A DNA stretch of 64,000 bases from the human T2T-CHM13v2.0 reference genome, Homo sapiens. Positions 2,045 to 58,693 of this stretch are shown piece by piece. A program made the translations under genes and the position numbers. Where the stretch lies: NCBI RefSeq assembly GCF_009914755.1, contig NC_060931.1; one strand, 5' to 3'. The notes beneath the pieces are model-generated. The model made no database searches. It had not been told where the DNA came from and saw only the letters and a list, made by a program, of their open reading frames with translations. Each line of letters starts with the position of its first letter. The stretch's first letter is position 1.

Positions 2045-3860
<1,816 letters not shown>

Positions 3861-24673: not shown

Positions 24674-25040
24674 TAATATAGTTTGACATGTCCCCACCCA
24701 AATCTCATCTTGACTTGTAGTTCCCATAATCCCCACATGTGGTGGGAGGGACCTGGTGGGAGGTAACCGAACCCTGGGGGTGGCTACCTCCATGCTGTTC
24801 TCATGATAGTGAGTTCTCATGAGAGCTGATGGTTTTATATGGGCCTTTCCATCAGCTTCACTCTGCATTTCTCCTTCCTGCCGCCATGTGGAGGATATGT
24901 TGGCTTCCCCTTCCACCATGATTATAAGTTTCCTGAGGCCTCCCAGCCCTGTGGAACCGTGAGTCAATTAAATCTCTTTCCTTTATAAATTACCCAGTCT
25001 TGGGTATGACTTCATAGCAGTGTGAGAATGAACTAATACA
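24674..25040 (+). mobile_element. THE1 (B/C) MaLR solo LTR
   Basis: CCCCACCCAAATCTCATCTTG...ACTAATACA; TSD ATTAA. Confidence 0.9.
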
Positions 25041-25110
25041 ATTAATAATCCAATATAACAACGTATTTTAATCACATATTACAGGCTTCAGATACATAGA
25101 ATTAAATAAG

Positions 25111-31138: not shown

Positions 31139-31590
31139 ACAACAGTCCTGTAAGCCTGAGTTTAGAGTTTAGTTTGGGCCCTTGGGATAGGCACTTTTAC
31201 CCACATCGAGGTTGCTTGATAGACAACCTCTCTTTTCAGGGATGTAAATACATCATTTCTCAACATGATGCAAAAACATCATTTCTGCAAAGGGGCAATA
31301 CCCTTGGGGACTTCCCTTTAGTTTGAGCCACTGTGAGGTCATGGAATGATGTTGCTGGAAAGCCAGGAAAATGGTACTCCTCACTGAATTTTGAGCCAGA
31401 ATCAGAACACATCAGCCTCAGGATATGGAAACTAATGAAACCAATATCCTGCAACTTACAGAAGGTGCTACCTTAAGGGATCATCAGCACTCCACAGCCT
31501 GAAAGATCAGTGGTGCAAATTAAACAACTTCCATAGTTCTACTCATACGATTACTTCCTCTTGGAATAGCCCATTACTTCTCTTTTTCCT

Positions 31591-31968
31591 TGATGTGGTT
31601 TGGCTGTGTCCCCACTCAAAAGTCATCTTGAATTGTAGCTCCCATAATTCCTATGTGTTGTGGGAGGGACCTGGTGGAAGATAATTGAATTGTGGGGGTA
31701 TTTCCCCCACAATATGGGTTTTTCCCATATTGTTCTCATGGTAATGAATAAGTCTCACGAGATGTGGCGGTTATATAAGGGGAAACCCCTTTTGCTTTGT
31801 TCTCATTCTCTCTTGTCTGCCACCATGTAAGACGTGCCTTTTGCCTGCTGCCATTATTGTGAGGCCTCCCAGCCACGTGGAACTGTGAGTCCATTAAACT
31901 TCTTTTTCTTTATAAATTACCCAGTCTCAGGTATGTCTTTATTAGCAGCATGAAAACGGATTCATACA
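31591..31968 (+). mobile_element. THE1B-like solo LTR
   Basis: TGATGTGGTTTGGCTGTGTCCCC...AATTACCCAGTCTCAGGTATGTC...ATACA. Confidence 0.9.
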
Positions 31969-33466
31969 CTCCCTGACTATTGAATCTTTCTTATCTTTCA
32001 GGGTATTCCTCAAAACCCAAGTCTCTCTTAAGCATTGCCTCTGCCCACACCATTGGAATTATTTCCACCCTCTTCCACCCCTCTGCTATAGTTCCTCTGA
32101 TCCTCTCTTGTAGCTCTCCACATATTGTTTTGTTTTATAATTGTCCTACCCAAGTCTGTCTTCCCAATCAATGCACAGGCTGGAGTTGGTTCTTTTTGGT
32201 GTCCTATTTCCCTGAATAGAGCCTGGCACAGATTAGGTGCTCAGTCAATATTTACTGTAAGCATCATCCCATAATTAGATAGTGACAACAGGAAATATTT
32301 ATCTTCTTGCATCTAGGTGAGACTGAACCTGATTAAGCAAAGCAGATCAGTGTCCAGGAAACTCCTGTGGCATTCCAACGGAGGAAAAATTCATAACTTA
32401 TCTCAGCAAACACTTATAACACTGCTGTGGTTTGTTCAGTGATGATAAATATCTTTGCCTTGTCATTTCATCTTTCATCTGCTGTTTGTTCCACTTTCCT
32501 GGAACAAAATCCTTGAGCATGAAGATACTGTTACCTTTCTTTATAACCTTCACCGAGGGTAGCATAAGATAATGAAGATAGTGGACAAGTCATAAATGAT
32601 TGATTAATTGATTGACTCAGTTAATAAACATTTTCTCAGCTTTATGTATCTGCCTGCTGCAGGTATATAAGCCACAATACTTTTAAGGGCTCTCAGTTCA
32701 GTTGGAGAGACATTGCATTTCATTATAGTGTGTTATTGATGAATCTGAGTTACCAAGCCAATAGGAGAACAAAACAAGAGGTATGAAAATGTGCTCGACA
32801 TCATTGATCATCAGAGAAATGCAAATCAAAACTACAGTAAGATACCATCTCTACCACAGTTAAAATGGCTTTTATCCAAAAGACAGGCAATGACAAATGT
32901 TGGTTAGGATGGGGAGAAAAGGGAACCCTCATACACTGTTAGAATGTAAATTAGTACAGCCACTTCGGAGAAGAGTTTGAAGGTTCCTAAAAAAACCAAA
33001 AGTCAAGCTACAGTATGATCCTGCAATCCTACTCCTAGATATATACCAAAAAGAAAGAAAATCAGTATAGTAAAGAGATATCTGCACTCCCTTGTTTATT
33101 GCAACACTGTTCACAATAACCAAGATTAGGAAGCAACCTAAGTGCCCATCAACAGATAAATGCATAAAGAAAATGTGGTACATATAGGCAATGGAGCACT
33201 ATTCAGCCATGAAAAAGAATGAGATCCTGTCATTTGCAACAACATGGATGGAACTGAAGGTCACTATGTTAAGTGAAAATAGTCAGGCACAAAAAGACAA
33301 ACTTTGCATGTTCTCACTTATTTGTGGGATCCAAAAATTAAAACAATTGAACTCATGGAGATAGAGTAGCAGGATGGTTACCAGTGGCTGGAAAGTGGGG
33401 GATGGCAGGTGGGGAGGGAATGGAGATGGCTAATAGGTACAGCAAAATAGTTAGAAAGAATAAATA

Positions 33467-34267: not shown

Positions 34268-34985
34268 TATATATGTTATTTATATTAATTAATATATATT
34301 TATATTATTTATAATATTTATATATATAATATATAATATAATTATATTATATAATATATTATATATCATATAATATATTATATAATTATATATTATATTA
34401 TATAATTATTAATTAATATAAATTATTATTTATCATGTATACATTATATGTAATATCATTTATATAATATACATGTATTATTTATAACATATAAATATAT
34501 ATTATTATATTATAAAAATATACACAAATATGTTTATATATAAATATATAATATTTTATATATATTATGTAAAATATTTTATATATTATATATATAATAT
34601 TTTATATAATATATATAAAATATTTTATATATTATATATAATATTTTATATATTATATTATAATTTTATATATTTATATATAAATTTATATATTTATAAT
34701 TTTATATATTTATATATTATATTATATATTATATATATAATATATATATAATATATAAAATATTTTTTATATATAATATTTTATATTTATATATAATATA
34801 TAAAATATATAAAAATATATATAATATATAAAATATATAAAAATATATATAATATATATTATATATAAAAATATATATAATATATATTATTTATATATGT
34901 AAATATAGATTATGAATCATATTATTTTTATATTTTTATATAATATATAAAACATATATATTATGTTACATATTTATATATATCT
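34268..34985. repeat. (TA)-rich low-complexity tract
   Basis: ~700 bp nearly pure A/T grown from the Alu tail. Confidence 0.95.
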
Positions 34986-35830: not shown

Positions 35831-37700
35831 GCGAGTATATCTTATCCTCTTTCCGAGCCTTAATTACTCCGTCTGTAAAACAGGCACGATGATCCCATTC
35901 AAATGAAAATTCGAGTATGACAGTATGACAGTATTTTGAAACTCTATTGTAGTCCCTCTACCAGGGTTTTTCTTTTCTTGGCTCTGGTCCAAATTCTCTA
36001 CTGTTACTTAAGGTTTATCGTGATCTATTGCTTGAGTCCCTCTTTCTCTCCTTCAAAGAGATTATTGCTTTCATGTTGAAAGAAAAACTGCAACCCCACT
36101 GCTAACCCAAAGGGGAGTGGACAGAGCCATGTGTGGGAGAAGCAGTTAAATCATAAAATAATAGCAGGGGGCTGAAATTGCCCCTGACTGCCCATTGCTG
36201 CTCTCATTTTTATAGTCCATTAAAACCTACAATCACTGTAATGTTTATGCATTATTGGGGAGATAAATTGCATAATTTTCATTTTGCAATTTAAATGTAA
36301 TTATGATCTTACTAATGACTAAAACCTGAATTTGCTAGGCTATCAGTTTTTCTAACCCTTGCCAAAATTATAGGTAATTACTTAAGGCTTACAATAATTA
36401 TAAGTCCATCTCTTAAATAATTAATGTGCACTTTCATGGTACAAAACAGCTAGTAATCAAACGACCTCTGCTTACACTGCAAACTCAAGCAATTAAGCCT
36501 ATTGTGTAGAACTATGGAAATATACCCATTTGCAAGAGTCCTTCCATTGGCAAGCTAAAACATGAGGTTGCTGTGTTTTATAGTATCAAATAAGGACGAA
36601 TTCCCCTGCTGCCAAAAGGCCAGAAAAAGAAAGTGATCCACAAAATTGTAGGAAATGTAATCTGAATCTACACAACACTATTGTAGCTGGTGGGAGACAG
36701 GCTGAGGAGCAGGAGGAAAACAGAGAATGCTTCCGGCTATGGACTTGAAATAAATGTGAAATGGATCTAGTTTTCACAAAAGAGCTAAGAGTGGGGTGTG
36801 ACTAGAACTTATCACCTGCCTTTTCGTCTTTATTTTCTTCTTGAGGGGACATGCAATTCCTTCCCTAACAAACATATAGCATGGAGCTGAACTTCTGTGA
36901 CACAGGGATAAATAAGGTCGAGTTTTTGCCCTTGAGAAATTAACCTACTAGTGTATGTTATGAGATAGGCAAGCAGAAAATCAGAATAAACCCTGATAAG
37001 TGCTGCAATTTCCCACAGAGGGGTGGTGGCAGATATGCAAGCACTGAGCCACAAATAGTGTTTCTTAATATTTGTTATTCTGCTCACAAAGAGTCTCTAA
37101 AGGTTCCTGAGAGTGGAACTGGCCAGTAAGGGATATTCCAAGGACCTGAGCTGCTCCTGCCCTGGGGTTTTGGCTCACAGTGACTTAGCACAATGAGTAT
37201 CACATCCAGATCAGAACACCAGATATTCTTGATGTAGGAAACGTTCCAAAATGAATTCCTGGAGTCATCTCCTTCTCACTGCTTTGTGTTCATTTTTTGC
37301 CTGCTCAGCTCTTTCTATCCTGATCACACCCATTAGCCAAGATTCAGCACCACTACCTTCTCCTCCAAGAAGCCTGCTCCAATACTACAGAGCTCTTCAA
37401 AAGTTCCCCTCTTTATACATAAACTTATCTGAAGGGTGTTGTGATGAGTCACTTTATATCGCACCGTGGCAGGCTCACAGTGCCCAGATATATGGTCAGA
37501 CATTATTCTGGATGTCTCTGTGAGGGTGTTTGTGGATGAGATTAACATTTAAACAGTGGACTTTTGAGTGAAGTTGATTACATGCCATAATGTGGGTGGG
37601 CCTCATCCAATCAGTTGAAGGCACTCATAGAACAAAGGTTGATTGCTCTCAAGCAAGAAGGACTTCTGCTAGCAGGTAGATATTGATCAAGCCAAATTGT

Positions 37701-38124
37701 TGATATTGCTTGGATTTGTGTCCCTGCCCAAATCTCATGTCGAATTGTAATCCCGTGCTAGAGGTGAGGCCTGATGGGAGGTGATTCGATCATGGGGGTG
37801 AAGTTCTCCTGAATGGTTTCACACCATTCCCCTTTGGTACTGTACAGTGAGTAAATTCCAATGAGCTCTAATTGTTTAAAAGTGTGTAACACCTCCTTCT
37901 GCCGTCTCTTGGTCCAGTTCCTTGGTCTAGCTCCTGCCATGTAAGACACCTGCTCCTACTTTGCCTTCCTCCATGAATAAAAGCTTCCTAAGCCCTCCCT
38001 GGAAGCAGATACTGCCATGCTTTCTTTACAGCCTGCAGAACCATGAGCCAATTTAACCTCTTTTCTCTGTAAATTACCGCGTCTCAGGTATTTCTTTATA
38101 GCCCTGAAAGAACAGACTAATGCA
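37701..38124 (+). mobile_element. MSTA MaLR solo LTR
   Basis: GGATTTGTGTCCCTGCCCAAATCTCATGTCGAATTG...ACAGACTAATGCA. Confidence 0.85.
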
Positions 38125-38230
38125 AATATCCTTCTCTGGGTCTCCAGCCCACCAGCCCACTCTTCAGATTTTGGGCTTGCCAGCCTCCATAATCACATGA
38201 CCAATCCCTTAAAATCTCTCCTCTCTCTCT

Positions 38231-44472: not shown

Positions 44473-45269
<797 letters not shown>

Positions 45270-45633
45270 GATGCTAACAGGCCTGCAACCTGCATTTTTG
45301 CCTCACTGTGATAACGTCTGGTGACCTTGGCCAAGTCAAACACCTCCAGCACCAGTTTTCCTTTTGTGGGGCTAAAAAAGCAATCCCTATTCCACTTTTC
45401 CAGAAGAAAAATCTTTAGGCCCATGATGGTTACCCTAATGGACTCCCCAAGAATGCTGACTGTCAGTAGCAGGTGCAGAGACTCCCAGAGTTCCTAGAAG
45501 ACCAAAAGATGGTTTCCAAAGAGCTGGCTGTAGTAACACCTGTACAGTTGCCCCCCACTTATTCGTACAGAATACTTTCTAAAACCGCCCAGGGGATTTC
45601 TCAAACCATAGATAGTACTGAACCCCATCTATA

Positions 45634-47291: not shown

Positions 47292-48900
47292 TGCCATCAC
47301 CCAAGGGGTTCTTCCTGCCAGCTGCTTAAAGACCACCTCATTGTACTAGAGAAAGAGTTAATAGACACGAGGCTGGCCATGCCACACTGGGAGATGGAAT
47401 TGGTACTCTAATCATCTCTTTCAAAGCTCCTAGGTTAGGGGTGTTTCAAAGGCCGTTTGGGGGAAGAGGTGGGGGTGGCCAGGTAACGGGTGCCTGCTGC
47501 TCATTGGTTGGGGCAGAAATGAAATCATAGTGGGTAGAAGCTGTTCTTCTGAGGACTGAATCACTTCTGGATGACGCCACAGCAGCAGGATTGGTGGTCC
47601 AGTTGGAGCCATTAGGTTTAGGTAGAACCATGGATATCAGACATGCAAAAAAAGGAAAGAGGTCCTGATTCAGACCCCAAGAGAGGGTTCTTGGATCTCA
47701 CACAAGAAAGAAATCAGGGCAAGACCACAGATGCAAAGCAAAATATATCTCAAAAGACCAGTCTACCATAGTGGTATTATTTGCAGGAGCAATTGGGGAA
47801 GCTGTGTCTGATAACCTCCAGAATCACGGCTGACAATCATTCATTTCTGAGCCTTAGCAGGACTCAGGTTCCTCTTCTCTGACTAGCCTGATGGGCTGCA
47901 ATTAGCTTTCCAAAAGCAGTTGAGTTCTGGACAAGGCCTATTATCCTTTAAGCTATAGCCTAATAGTCTTTCAAAGTTAGCCTGACCGGATAGCCCAGGG
48001 ATAATTAAGACAAAGGCAAGATGTGGGGGTGGGTTAACTTAGCTTTCTCTTATACTTTTTCTCATCTACGGAATTTTTGCAAAGGTGGTTTTTTGTCAGA
48101 GGTGTTCGAACCAGAGTGACTCCATCTTGAGTGAGGGCTAGGAAAATGAGGCTGAGACTTGCTGGGCTGAATTCCCAAGAAGTGAGGTATTCCTAGTCTC
48201 TAGATGTTTACAGTTAAGGGAACAGATTGATAATGTTTATTAAACAGAACCAGACTTGGGAATGTCCAGATATCCCAATATCTTGAGAACAAATGCATTC
48301 CTAATTTTGCTTTAAAGATAATAATATTGATTCTTGCAAAATTTAGTAATTAAGAAAATTAATCCTTTATCACAAACCCTTGTAGCAGAGAACATCCTCT
48401 CATAATCTTTTTTTAACATATATATGATAAAATATCATATATATGAGATATATATATATCAATCATATATATAAATCCCACCTTCAACCAAAGGGAGGGT
48501 GTCACATTATATTGCATTTAATTAAACTTAGCTCTCCATTCTGTTTCTAATTGTGATATTTAAAATTTTAAACTAGACATAAAATGTTTTCATTTTGTCA
48601 AAAAAAGTGTCAATCTTCATAAGGAATCTTTTATCATATATATGATATATATATATTTTATCATATATATGATAAAATAAATATATATATATTCAAGCAT
48701 TGTACCTTGTACCTAGGGTGGACGTGTTCCTCCTCTTACTTTCGGGAACCTCCTACTCTGTCTATGGAGTAGCTGTATTTTTACCATTTTACTTTCTTAA
48801 TAAACTTGCTTTGCAGACTTGCCCTTAATTCTTTCTTGCACAAGATCCAAGAACCCTCTCTTGGGGTCTGAATCAGGACCCCTTTCTTGTAACAGTTTCA
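47292..48900 (-). mobile_element. ERV1 solo LTR (LTR26-like) with MER41 inserted at its very end
   Basis: TSD CCAC at 47288-47291 and 48901-48904; TTTTGCAAAGGTGGTTT..CA terminus. Confidence 0.65.
48094..48894 (+). mobile_element. MER41C/D-like solo LTR with internal insertion
   Basis: TGTCAGAGGTGTTCGAACCAGAG...GACCCCTTTCTTGTAACA. Confidence 0.85.
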
Positions 48901-51763: not shown

Positions 51764-52286
51764 AGATGGAAGGTGGGAGAGATTGGGCCTCCTGCTGCTC
51801 AGCTTTGAGTGAGATGAGCAAAGGGAATTTACCGCAGGATTTGGGAGAATGCAGATGGTTGCTGATTTTGGCAAGAGCAGTCTCTATCAGTGATGCAGAC
51901 AAGAACCTGACTGTTGTGGGTTTAAGGGAGACTGTGAGGCAAGTAAGTGGAGATGGCAAAGGCAGACAACTTTGCGGAGGAATAAGGAGCAGAGAAATGG
52001 GGTGATGGCCGGAGGGGATCCCAGGCCTTAGGATGGGCATTGTTTTTAAAGATGTAAGCTGTGTAACACCAGCATCTTCATCAGTGGACAGTAATGGCTC
52101 TGGAAAGAGTGAGAAAGCCCAGAGTGAAGAGGAAATAGTCATTGCAGGAAGGGCTGTGGTCTAGTGGTGGTTCTCCTTCCCTCTTTACAGAGGGGATGGA
52201 GCAGTCTTGCACCTGACTAAGACATTTGTCTTAGAGATCTTAGAGGTATGAGAGAGGATGTTGAGCTGGAAACAATGGGTGATGGA

Positions 52287-52447
52287 TGTTTTAGTCCGTT
52301 TTCACACTGCTATAAAGAACTACCTAAGACTGGGTAATTTATGAAGACAAGTGGTTTCATTGATTCACAGTTCCACAGGCTTAACAGGAGGCATGACTGG
52401 GGGACTCGGGAAATTTACAATCATGGCAGAAGGCAAAGAGGAAGCAA
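52287..52447 (-). mobile_element. THE1 fragment (duplicated copy of the 53163 element junction)
   Basis: Shares ~45 bp of non-LTR flank with the 53163 LTR. Confidence 0.8.
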
Positions 52448-53162
52448 GCTGACAGGACATCAGCTTCTGTTTGGATACAACCAGTGATGGCGAGCTCACT
52501 AGCTACCCAGGCAGTCCTTTTCATTATCGGGTAGCTCTAACAGACACATCAGCTGCATAGGCATCCTTGCAATTTTCCACATTTGCCTTTGAGAGGTGCA
52601 TGAGTAGGATCCTCTCTGTAAAGAGGGAAGGCAGAGAACATGTGTAAAATGCAGCAAGGCAAGTAGATTAGATGGTGCCAAGATGGTGTGATCCTTCCAC
52701 TGCTTTTATTTTCTCAGTAAAATATAAATTCAGGACATTCTGAGAAGAGGCAGGATATGAGAAGTTGGAGGATGTGAGAAAATTGACTCTGGAAATGTAA
52801 GAGGACCCCTTGGTATTGCTGAGGTTTGACGTGGGAATTGTAGTCATCCATTTAAAGTGAGATTTGTCAACACTGTGGTGGGTTGTCTTCAGCTATATTC
52901 AACTGCTGGGGCACAGGGCAGAGGTTGAAAGTTTAGTTGTTTTCCCAGGAAATTAAGATGGAAGGAAAGAGAAACAGGCTAGTGAAGAATGTGAGCAAGA
53001 GAGTGATGACAAGCCTGGAGGGTGGAATCTAAACAGCACCAGGAAGGAAGGGAGGACACTGGAGGTATAACAGAAAAGTGGCAAAGTCAATGGATTGGAG
53101 GGCTCAATGGTGTCAAAATAGAGGTATGAGAGGACATTGAGCTGGAAATAATGGGTGGTGGG

Positions 53163-53535
53163 TGTTTAGTCCGTTTTCAGGCTGCTATAAAGAACTACCT
53201 GAGACTGGGTAATTTATGAAGAAAAGAGGTTTAATTGACTCACAGTTTCACGTGGCTGGAGAGGCCTCAGGAAACTTACAATCATGGCAGAAAGCAAAAG
53301 GGAAGCAAACATGTCCTTCGTCACATGGCAGCAGGAGAGAGACAGAGAGCAAAGGGGGAAGTGCCACCTGCTTTTAAACAACCAGATCTCATGAGAACTC
53401 ACTCCCTATCATGAGAACAGCAAGGGGGATGTTTACCCCAATGATCCAATCACCTCCCACCAGGCCCCTCCTCGACAGATGAAGATTACAATTCCACATG
53501 AGATTTGGGTGGGGACACTGAGCCAAACCATACCG
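53163..53535 (-). mobile_element. THE1C/D solo LTR
   Basis: TAGTCCGTTTTCA..GCTATAAAGAAC...GAGCCAAACCATA; TSD (G/A)TGGG. Confidence 0.88.
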
Positions 53536-54212
53536 ATGGGTGATAGTTGCCATGGTGATTGTTACCACAGTAATAGTTGCCTTCTGCAGGAAGTCTTCAT
53601 GGCATGCGGGTGGTAACACTGAGGCCTGTCATTGTCTTGTTCACATACCAGGGCGAGTTGAAGATGAAGGATGGGACCAAGACAAATGGAGTCCTGAGAA
53701 GTTACTGGATAATGTAGGGAAACTAACAAGTCAGCTTTGCACAACCTCCTCTGAGGATGGAGGATGGAGACTAAATTAAGTTGAACCAGAAATAATGAGG
53801 TAAAGCTGGGGGAAAGATGTTAATCCAAATGGGAATCAAAAGTGGAATCAGATCTGGGAGTGTGAAGCCAGAAGTGAGATGGAAGTCAGAGGGGATAGGA
53901 AGACTATACAGTGTAGATAGAAGTTCAGGCAGAGTCTTCTGAATTCACTGTTGTCCTTGCCAGTTCCATACTCAGGAGTCTCTGTCCTTGGGTCTTAAAA
54001 GCTCATGGTGTGTCTTTTGATGGCAGTAGGGTGTCAATGTCCCATGTATGGGAAACAATATGGTGGGGTGGAGGATAGTGGAGCAGCACCAGGTCAACAC
54101 CCCGGGGCAGGAGCCGCACTGGGCTAAGTAGGACAGGGATCATTTCTGAGGGTGCAATTTAGAAAAAGCCACATTTACCACTTCGCCCTTAATTCAATAT
54201 TTATAGAGTGTT

Positions 54213-54547
54213 GATAAAGACATACCCGAGACTGGGAAGAAAAAGAGGTTTAATTGGACTTACAGTTCCGCATGGCTGGAGAGGCCTCAGAATCATGGCG
54301 GGAGGCAAAAGGCACTTCTTACATCGTGGCTGCAAGAGAAAATGAAGAAAGTGCTAAAGCAGAAACCCCTGATAAAACCATCAGGTCTTATAAGGCTTAT
54401 TCACTACCATGAGAACAATACACAGTATGAGGGAAACTGTCCCCATGACTCAAATTATCTCCCACCGGGTCCCTCTCACAACACGTGGGAATTATGGGAG
54501 TACAATTCAAGATGATATTTGGGTGGGGACACAGCCAAACCACATCA
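54213..54547 (-). mobile_element. THE1B solo LTR (one end truncated)
   Basis: GATAAAGACATACCCGAGACTGGG...GGGGACACAGCCAAACCACATCA. Confidence 0.88.
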
Positions 54548-54700
54548 CAGGGCAATGAGATAGTCAAAGTGATTAAGCAAACTAAATGCAGTTAGAAACA
54601 GTGAGTTCTAGACTCAGTTCTGCCATTAAATAATTATTAATTTAACTTTTGACAGCAGATCAAATAACTGCAACAGAATGTTGGGAGATGTTATAGTTGA

Positions 54701-58207: not shown

Positions 58208-58693
<486 letters not shown>

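What the first reader, a model, noticed from the sequence alone, without database searches (positions are those of the whole stretch)
52160..53308. Multi-segment patchwork insertion in L2: inverted piece, hairpin, duplicated THE1 junction and orphan piece
Between L2-like halves (to ~52160, from ~52583) lie four parts. (a) 52175-52214 is an inverted copy of 52594-52631 (CCTTCCCTCTTTACAGAGGGGAT vs ATCCTCTCTGTAAAGAGGGAAGG). (b) A hairpin CTAAGACA-tt-TGTCTTAG with a TCTTAGAG direct repeat. (c) 52241-52447 is a direct copy of 53119-53308, spanning ~45 bp of flank plus the THE1 end, so it is not an independent LTR insertion. (d) ~130 bp (52450-52582, partly L3/CR1-like) has no donor I could find in the window. 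Serial template switching fits (inference). The copy has a ~14-bp segment (AGGCTTAACAGGAGGC) absent from the donor.
Basis: partly seen in the sequence, partly recalled or inferred. Interest (0 to 1): 0.7.

Follow-up and report, generated by a model that had tools for sequence, protein, structure and literature searches.

The report
Ancient multi-donor DNA repair patch
This 410-base stretch of human chromosome 7 is stitched from copies of its neighbouring DNA and a piece that matches chromosome 17, and is likely the scar of one faulty DNA repair in an early primate ancestor, a known kind of mutation with no sign of function.

Summary
The patchwork is real and every piece now has a source. About 410 bp (52167-52577) sit between two L2 halves that lie within about 10 nt of each other in related L2 copies. 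In order: an inverted copy of the first 60 bp of the right flank; a direct copy of its first 16 bp (the hairpin is the fold-back joint between these two); a 207-bp copy of the LTR junction 0.9 kb downstream; and the 'orphan', which matches one locus on chromosome 17 at 112 of 132 bases without gaps (20 family relatives: 71-92 of 132). The family likeness runs on upstream on chr17 but not on chr7, so chr17 is the likely donor. All pieces are about equally diverged from their sources (pooled 13.7%, homogeneity p = 0.65), fitting one event some 35-50 My ago. No target-site duplication or poly(A); 1-5 nt overlaps at four joints. The extra LTR segment is the family's usual state (54 of 60 relatives), probably lost later by the local LTR. 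Best reading: serial template switching at one break (0.6), a known class. Orthologues could not be examined. No function is indicated.

The parts
51900..52166 (+).
   Evidence: Aligns upstream of the anchor above all 40 shuffles in 4 of 15 paralogues; runs to 52166 and 52159 in two of them; alignments
52167..52169 (+). 3-nt filler repeating the last three bases of the left flank (or the flank's true end)
   Evidence: Sequence directly; assignment is inference
52170..52224 (-). Inverted copy of 52639-52584, the first ~60 bp of the right flank
   Evidence: 10 mismatches in 53 columns; 0 of 500 shuffles reach its score
52217..52234 (.). Perfect 8-bp hairpin: the fold-back joint between the inverted and the direct copy of the right-flank start
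   Evidence: both arms trace to 52584-52591 (alignment)
52222..52237 (+). Direct copy of 52579-52594, start of the right flank
   Evidence: 14 of 16, best non-self match in 64 kb on both strands
52238..52245 (+). 8-nt slippage repeat of 52229-52236 carrying the 5-nt overlap into the next piece
   Evidence: Junction J3
52241..52449 (+). Direct copy of 53119-53310: 46 bp of flank, target-site bases and the end of the solo LTR, in the family's long form
52449..52580 (+). 132-bp piece matching G000:C17 (L002 1627 to 1496); L3/CR1-like motif plus ~40 bp of non-family sequence
   Evidence: 112 of 132 ungapped; 39/44, 38/44, 35/44 inside versus 12/40 and 6/40 just outside; reciprocal only hit
52578..53162 (+). 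Right host flank, same LINE remnant; template of the inverted, direct and flank copies
   Evidence: Profile of 10 paralogues matches from 52581, E 3e-18
53163..53535 (-). Solo MaLR-type LTR (THE1 label not tested) with 5-bp target-site duplication at 53158-53162 and 53536-53540; short form, lacking the segment that the copy holds

Best explanation
The stretch is an insertion of about 410 bp built from three copies of nearby DNA and one piece that matches chromosome 17, likely laid down in a single germline break-repair event by a DNA end that switched template several times. Shown: the four source-copy relations, the adjacency of the flanks in related LINE copies, the equal divergence, the lack of target-site duplication and poly(A). 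Inferred: a break at about 52166/52578; the right-hand end folded back and copied ~55 nt of itself; the left end annealed to that extension, copied through the fold-back and 16 nt on, slipped, re-primed by a 5-nt overlap 524 bp downstream on the same exposed strand, copied ~200 nt into the LTR, jumped to chr17 (1-nt overlap), copied 132 nt and closed on the right end (3-nt overlap). The same path can be read on the other strand. It likely happened soon after the LTR inserted, some 35-50 My ago; the local LTR likely lost 16 nt afterwards.
For: Two separate pieces begin and one ends within 6 nt of the same point, the start of the right flank, as expected if that point was a DNA end. Divergences 9-19% are homogeneous (53 of 387, p = 0.65). 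Flanks adjacent within ~10 nt in L090 and L098. chr17 match is locus-specific: 112/132 ungapped versus 71-92/132 with gaps for 20 relatives, sharp edges and 5 of 23 shared columns rare in relatives, and it includes ~40 nt that resemble no relative. Direction: 34-74 and 64-104 nt upstream of the motif chr17 resembles relatives above all 50 shuffles, chr7 does not. Overlaps of 2-3, 5, 1 and 3 nt at four joints; chance of at least three of four being 2 or more is 0.014. Sources are intact. Fold-back inversions at breaks and multi-fragment distant insertions are seen in yeast (PMC11724301, abstract and passages).
Against: No orthologue was available (header), so single-event timing rests on wide confidence intervals. 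Joints were read by eye on sequence 14% decayed; the left joint is ambiguous and the excision scan did not fix it. Only 4 of 15 L2 paralogues were informative, and the third (L092) fits the adjacency more loosely. The direction signal is modest: in the 34-64 nt zone chr17 did not beat every shuffle, and the relatives are no more alike to each other there than shuffles. Within the LTR the copy is no closer to the local LTR (0.826) than relatives are to each other (0.828) and differs from it in form, so a second LTR as template is not excluded. Tract lengths exceed what is described for polymerase theta (PMC7165422, passages), so the enzyme is not identified.
Confidence: 0.6

Rival explanations
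1. Two or more steps: first a 733-bp tandem duplication of 52579-53311 with the chr17 piece at its joint and the inverted piece at its start, later a separate 524-bp deletion inside the first copy.
For: The 16-bp direct piece and the LTR-junction copy are co-linear and in the same orientation as their sources; the local LTR itself seems to have changed later, so later events do occur here; hairpins can be fragile (established knowledge).
Against: An independent deletion would have to start within 16 nt of the fold-back joint, about 2% of 733 positions if uniform (inference); its joint carries a slippage repeat and a 5-nt overlap like the others.
Confidence: 0.2
2. End-joining capture of ready-made fragments (single-stranded flaps or cDNA of an LTR-driven and a chr17 transcript) instead of copying by one travelling end.
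For: Overlap at the chr17 entry is only 1 nt; class 2 templated insertions have been tied to reverse-transcribed RNA (PMC5110952, main text read); yeast fold-backs are captured by end joining (PMC11724301).
Against: No poly(A), polyadenylation signal or target-site duplication, no splice joint seen, and three of four pieces come from within 730 bp of the site on one side, which suits an exposed resected strand (inference).
Confidence: 0.15
3. A small mobile or functional element bounded by 60-bp terminal inverted repeats, or chance and family-level likeness.
For: The insert does lie between two 60-bp inverted arms.
Against: One arm is part of the host LINE; no second copy of either internal joint was found (2 matches, both local; 0 of 39 non-self scored hits cross the LTR-to-L3 joint, 40 of 1522 candidates scored); no Rfam match at E up to 1; family background is far lower.
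Confidence: 0.03

Closest known systems
Class 2 templated sequence insertion polymorphisms (Onozawa and Aplan, PMC5110952; parts 1-3 of 4 read)
   Same: Heritable patch templated from a distant locus, donor intact, no target-site duplication or poly(A), short overlaps, size within the 73-414 bp of their experimental insertions
   Different: Here several donors, three of them local, with a fold-back; 14% diverged from its sources, so ancient and probably fixed rather than polymorphic
FoSTeS/MMBIR complex insertions; bridges of templated insertions and local-distant clusters (PMC5120786 abstract; PMC7025897 passages)
   Same: String of copied segments that leaves the host chromosome and returns, mixed orientations, microhomology joints
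   Different: Segments of 16-207 bp instead of kilobases to megabases; germline fossil instead of patient or tumour event
Fold-back inverted and distant complex templated insertions at yeast breaks (PMC11724301 abstract and passages)
   Same: Inverted duplication of break-adjacent DNA (2 to ~150 bp there, 55 bp here); multi-fragment distant insertions
   Different: Local fold-back, local long-range and interchromosomal pieces are combined in one patch here; enzymes unknown
Polymerase theta / SD-MMEJ templated insertions (PMC7165422, PMC5728401 passages)
   Same: Direct and inverted copies of break-flanking DNA from repeated aborted synthesis; snap-back repeat motif
   Different: Described tracts are 3-30 bp from within 50 bp of the break; two pieces here are 132 and 207 bp from 540 bp away and from another chromosome
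Localized non-tandem duplications in human DNA (Frith and Khan, PMC5829575 passages)
   Same: Same- and opposite-strand non-tandem duplications, including cases with two or three fragments
   Different: That survey covered intrachromosomal recent events only

Membership tests
Class 2 TSIP | Insert templated from a distant, intact locus | tested here: met
   132 bp matches C17 at 112/132, reciprocal only hit
Class 2 TSIP | No target-site duplication of 5 bp or more, no poly(A), no polyadenylation signal | tested here: met
   Longest shared string across outer joints 4 nt; longest A run 3, T run 4; no signal
Class 2 TSIP | Microhomology, microdeletion or untemplated bases at joints | tested here: met
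   1-5 nt overlaps, 3-nt filler, loss of at most ~10 nt; read by eye
Class 2 TSIP | Polymorphic among humans | not testable with these tools
   One genome only; 14% divergence makes fixation likely (inference)
Class 1 TSIP / L1-mediated retroposition | Target-site duplication, poly(A) tail, TTTT/A site | tested here: not met
   flank ends
FoSTeS/MMBIR multi-switch insertion | Several copied segments with sources retained, mixed orientation, return to the start locus | tested here: met
FoSTeS/MMBIR multi-switch insertion | All joints formed in one event | tested here: inconclusive
   Homogeneous divergence (p = 0.65) and shared breakpoint, but no orthologues
Polymerase theta (TMEJ) templated insertion | Template within 50 bp of the break, tracts of about 3-30 bp | tested here: not met
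   Met by the 16-bp piece, borderline for the 55-bp piece, failed by the 207-bp and 132-bp pieces (definition from PMC7165422)
Independent LTR insertion at 52287 | Own target site and own flank | tested here: not met
   Shares flank (41 of 46) and target-site bases with the LTR at 53163
DNA transposon / MITE | Terminal inverted repeats foreign to the host, target-site duplication, several copies | tested here: not met
   One arm is host LINE; no TSD; no further copy

The most novel reading that the evidence does not exclude
The patch has three donor loci: besides chr17, the travelling end switched by long homology from the local LTR to another copy of the same, then young, LTR family. Patches like this would form an unread fossil record of germline repair and of which loci touched in the early simian nucleus, recoverable from one genome by donor tracing.
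Probability: 0.15. Interest if true: 0.55.

Novelty: new member of a known kind. Interest (0 to 1): 0.3.

Why it matters
Multi-donor templated insertions are mostly described in tumours, patients, induced breaks and recent polymorphisms. This is a legible fixed example from deep in primate history in which every piece, including an interchromosomal one, can still be traced, and the copy preserves an older state of its neighbour LTR. It is a usable phylogenetic marker and a test case for reading ancient repair scars, but a single locus in a gene desert with no evidence of function changes no view.

Tried and rejected
The right flank as DNA query found only itself; nhmmer found no L2 relative in the window or the loci then held, so relatives were found by a two-motif pattern. 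The first L2 profile was swamped by Alu in two loci; I rebuilt it from 10 of 15, dropping L091, L093, L095, L096, L100. An excision scan did not fix the breakpoint. My idea that the inverted copy keeps an older L2 state was not supported: closer to relatives in 2 of 11. The first long/short count (37 versus 20 of 57) was biased by the queries; the automatic sorting misfiled several rows and was redone. I first thought the local LTR differed from the long form by two independent changes; long forms with the extra base exist, so one deletion suffices. No second LTR donor or other piece in 22 kb around the chr17 site, and none of 5 other LTR relatives in the window is a close long form. The right flank's bottom strand folds no better than shuffles (z -0.39). 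Rfam: 0 matches. A paper search for this locus by recalled band names gave 0 papers. One paper (PMC4419790) was not held; supplements of no paper were read, and lists of insertions in them were not checked.

Full report
Observation. All four parts are in the sequence. The inverted piece extends to 52170-52229 against 52639-52579; none of 500 dinucleotide shuffles reaches its score, and the 19 of 400 random window places that do are AT tracts (16) or Alu (3). 52222-52237 is also a direct copy of 52579-52594 (14 of 16, best non-self match in the window). The hairpin at 52217-52234 is thus the joint where an inverted copy of the right flank's start turns into a direct copy of it. 52241-52447 copies 53119-53308 (167 matches, 23 mismatches) with the LTR's target-site bases; the 46-nt flank scores 64 against the local flank and at most 35 in 157 other held loci, and a genome search with 52100-52300 found only these two places.

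The orphan. A genome search gave one other match, C17:44457965-44458091 minus, and the reciprocal search returned only the window; these searches score few candidates, so they do not prove uniqueness. Identity is 112 of 132 without gaps, with sharp edges (12/40 before, 6/40 after). As background I took 20 of 111 genome matches to the L3-like motif (12 of the 13 exact ones, the donor left out, and 8 with one mismatch): they reach 71-92 of 132 with gaps allowed. The last ~40 shared bases resemble no relative, so the copy is of this locus, not of the family. Upstream of the joint chr17 keeps resembling the relatives (above all 50 shuffles for 34-74 and 64-104 nt, not for 34-64 nt), chr7 does not; the signal is modest but agrees with chr7's piece abutting a younger LTR fragment. 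In 22 kb around the chr17 site nothing else matches the patch.

The host. All 15 non-self matches of a two-motif pattern from the right flank were fetched. The left flank aligned upstream of the motif above all 40 shuffles in 4 of 15; in L090 and L098 it ends about 10 nt before the place where the right flank starts, in L092 more loosely, and in L097 the alignment stops earlier. A profile of 10 of the 15 matches the right flank from 52581 (E 3e-18) and the left only weakly (E 0.018). So the event was an insertion with little or no loss. There is no target-site duplication, poly(A) or polyadenylation signal.

The extra LTR segment. Of 116 genome places sharing an exact 41-mer with the local LTR, the first 60 listed were fetched: 54 hold the segment, 2 lack it like the local LTR by script and one more by eye, one has another deletion, two are interrupted. 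In a tree of the LTR part beyond the segment (58 rows) the local LTR groups with 12 long and 3 short forms (86/87), while 13 of 20 short forms group elsewhere; support is weak overall and the label needs 8 changes. The likelier reading (about 0.7, inference) is that the copy keeps the original state and the local LTR lost the segment later, by deletion between short repeats or by ectopic conversion, which is reported for human LTRs (PMC4921805, abstract and opening). Against: inside the LTR the copy is no closer to the local LTR (0.826) than relatives are to each other (0.828, 1275 pairs), so a switch to a second LTR cannot be excluded.

Timing. Mismatch rates are 10/53, 2/16, 5/46, 8/87, 8/53 and 20/132, homogeneous (p = 0.65), pooled 13.7%, about 0.15 after Kimura correction (hand arithmetic). 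With a recalled neutral rate of 1.5-2.2 x 10^-9 per site per year this gives 35-50 My. The LTR is an upper bound: MSTA and THE1 families are reported as simian-only, after the tarsier split and over 40 My old (PMC10735291, passages). Since copy and source are about as far apart as family members, the event likely followed the LTR insertion closely.

Mechanism. Two pieces start and one ends at the start of the right flank, which suggests a DNA end there. A fold-back extension of that end would give one continuous template for the inverted piece, the hairpin and the 16-bp direct piece; the LTR-junction copy lies on the same strand 524 bp on and is entered by a 5-nt overlap after an 8-nt slip; chr17 is entered with 1 nt and left with 3 nt. 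Three of four joints with 2 nt or more has chance 0.014, but the joints were read by eye on decayed sequence and the fifth is ambiguous. This path is inferred. Rivals: tandem duplication with a later deletion (0.2) and capture of free DNA or cDNA fragments (0.15). A mobile element is rejected: one arm is host sequence and no scored hit crosses the internal joint (0 of 39).

Comparison. It works like a class 2 templated sequence insertion (PMC5110952, parts 1-3 of 4), like bridges of templated insertions and local-distant clusters (PMC7025897, passages), complex chromosomal insertions (PMC5120786, abstract) and yeast fold-back plus distant insertions (PMC11724301, abstract and passages). It fails the published length and distance limits of polymerase theta insertions (PMC7165422, passages), though its first two pieces look like snap-back products (PMC5728401, passages). 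Local multi-fragment duplications are catalogued in humans (PMC5829575, passages) and short template switches in apes (PMC7954356, abstract); PMC7407515 was seen as passages only. One search aimed at this locus found nothing; the other nine were about the class, and most subscription papers are not searched.

Verdict. Real, traceable, ancient, of a known kind; no gene annotated nearby, no RNA family, no sign of function. Orthologues were not available. Interest 0.3.

Noticed in passing
window 52600-52612: The differences between the inverted copy and the right flank cluster here, where the flank holds an 8-bp palindrome; possibly a later short template switch. Neither version was clearly closer to L2 relatives.
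   Followed up: partly
window 52217-52234 versus 52584-52591: Both hairpin arms share two bases that the present right flank lacks, so one arm may have been copied from the other or the flank changed later.
   Followed up: partly
L145 (G000:C5:93259838-93260037): An LTR relative with its own small internal re-copying: a segment repeated, then apparently reversed.
   Followed up: no
window 2068-3530, 34281-34950, 48422-48676, 58335-58375: Long AT-rich tracts dense in perfect hairpins; they account for nearly all of 177 hairpin hits in the window.
   Followed up: no
window 24680-25060, 31580-31980, 37690-38140, 44520-45290, 54190-54560: Five more MaLR-type LTR relatives in the window, 72-86% identical to the copy over aligned columns; none is a close long form.
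   Followed up: partly
L081/L082, L095/L096, L163/L164: Pairs of fetched relatives that look like near-duplicates of each other, so the background sets are slightly less independent than their counts.
   Followed up: no
LTR relatives L007-L067: Long and short forms are scattered over the family tree (8 changes), suggesting repeated loss or recombination of the same segment.
   Followed up: partly
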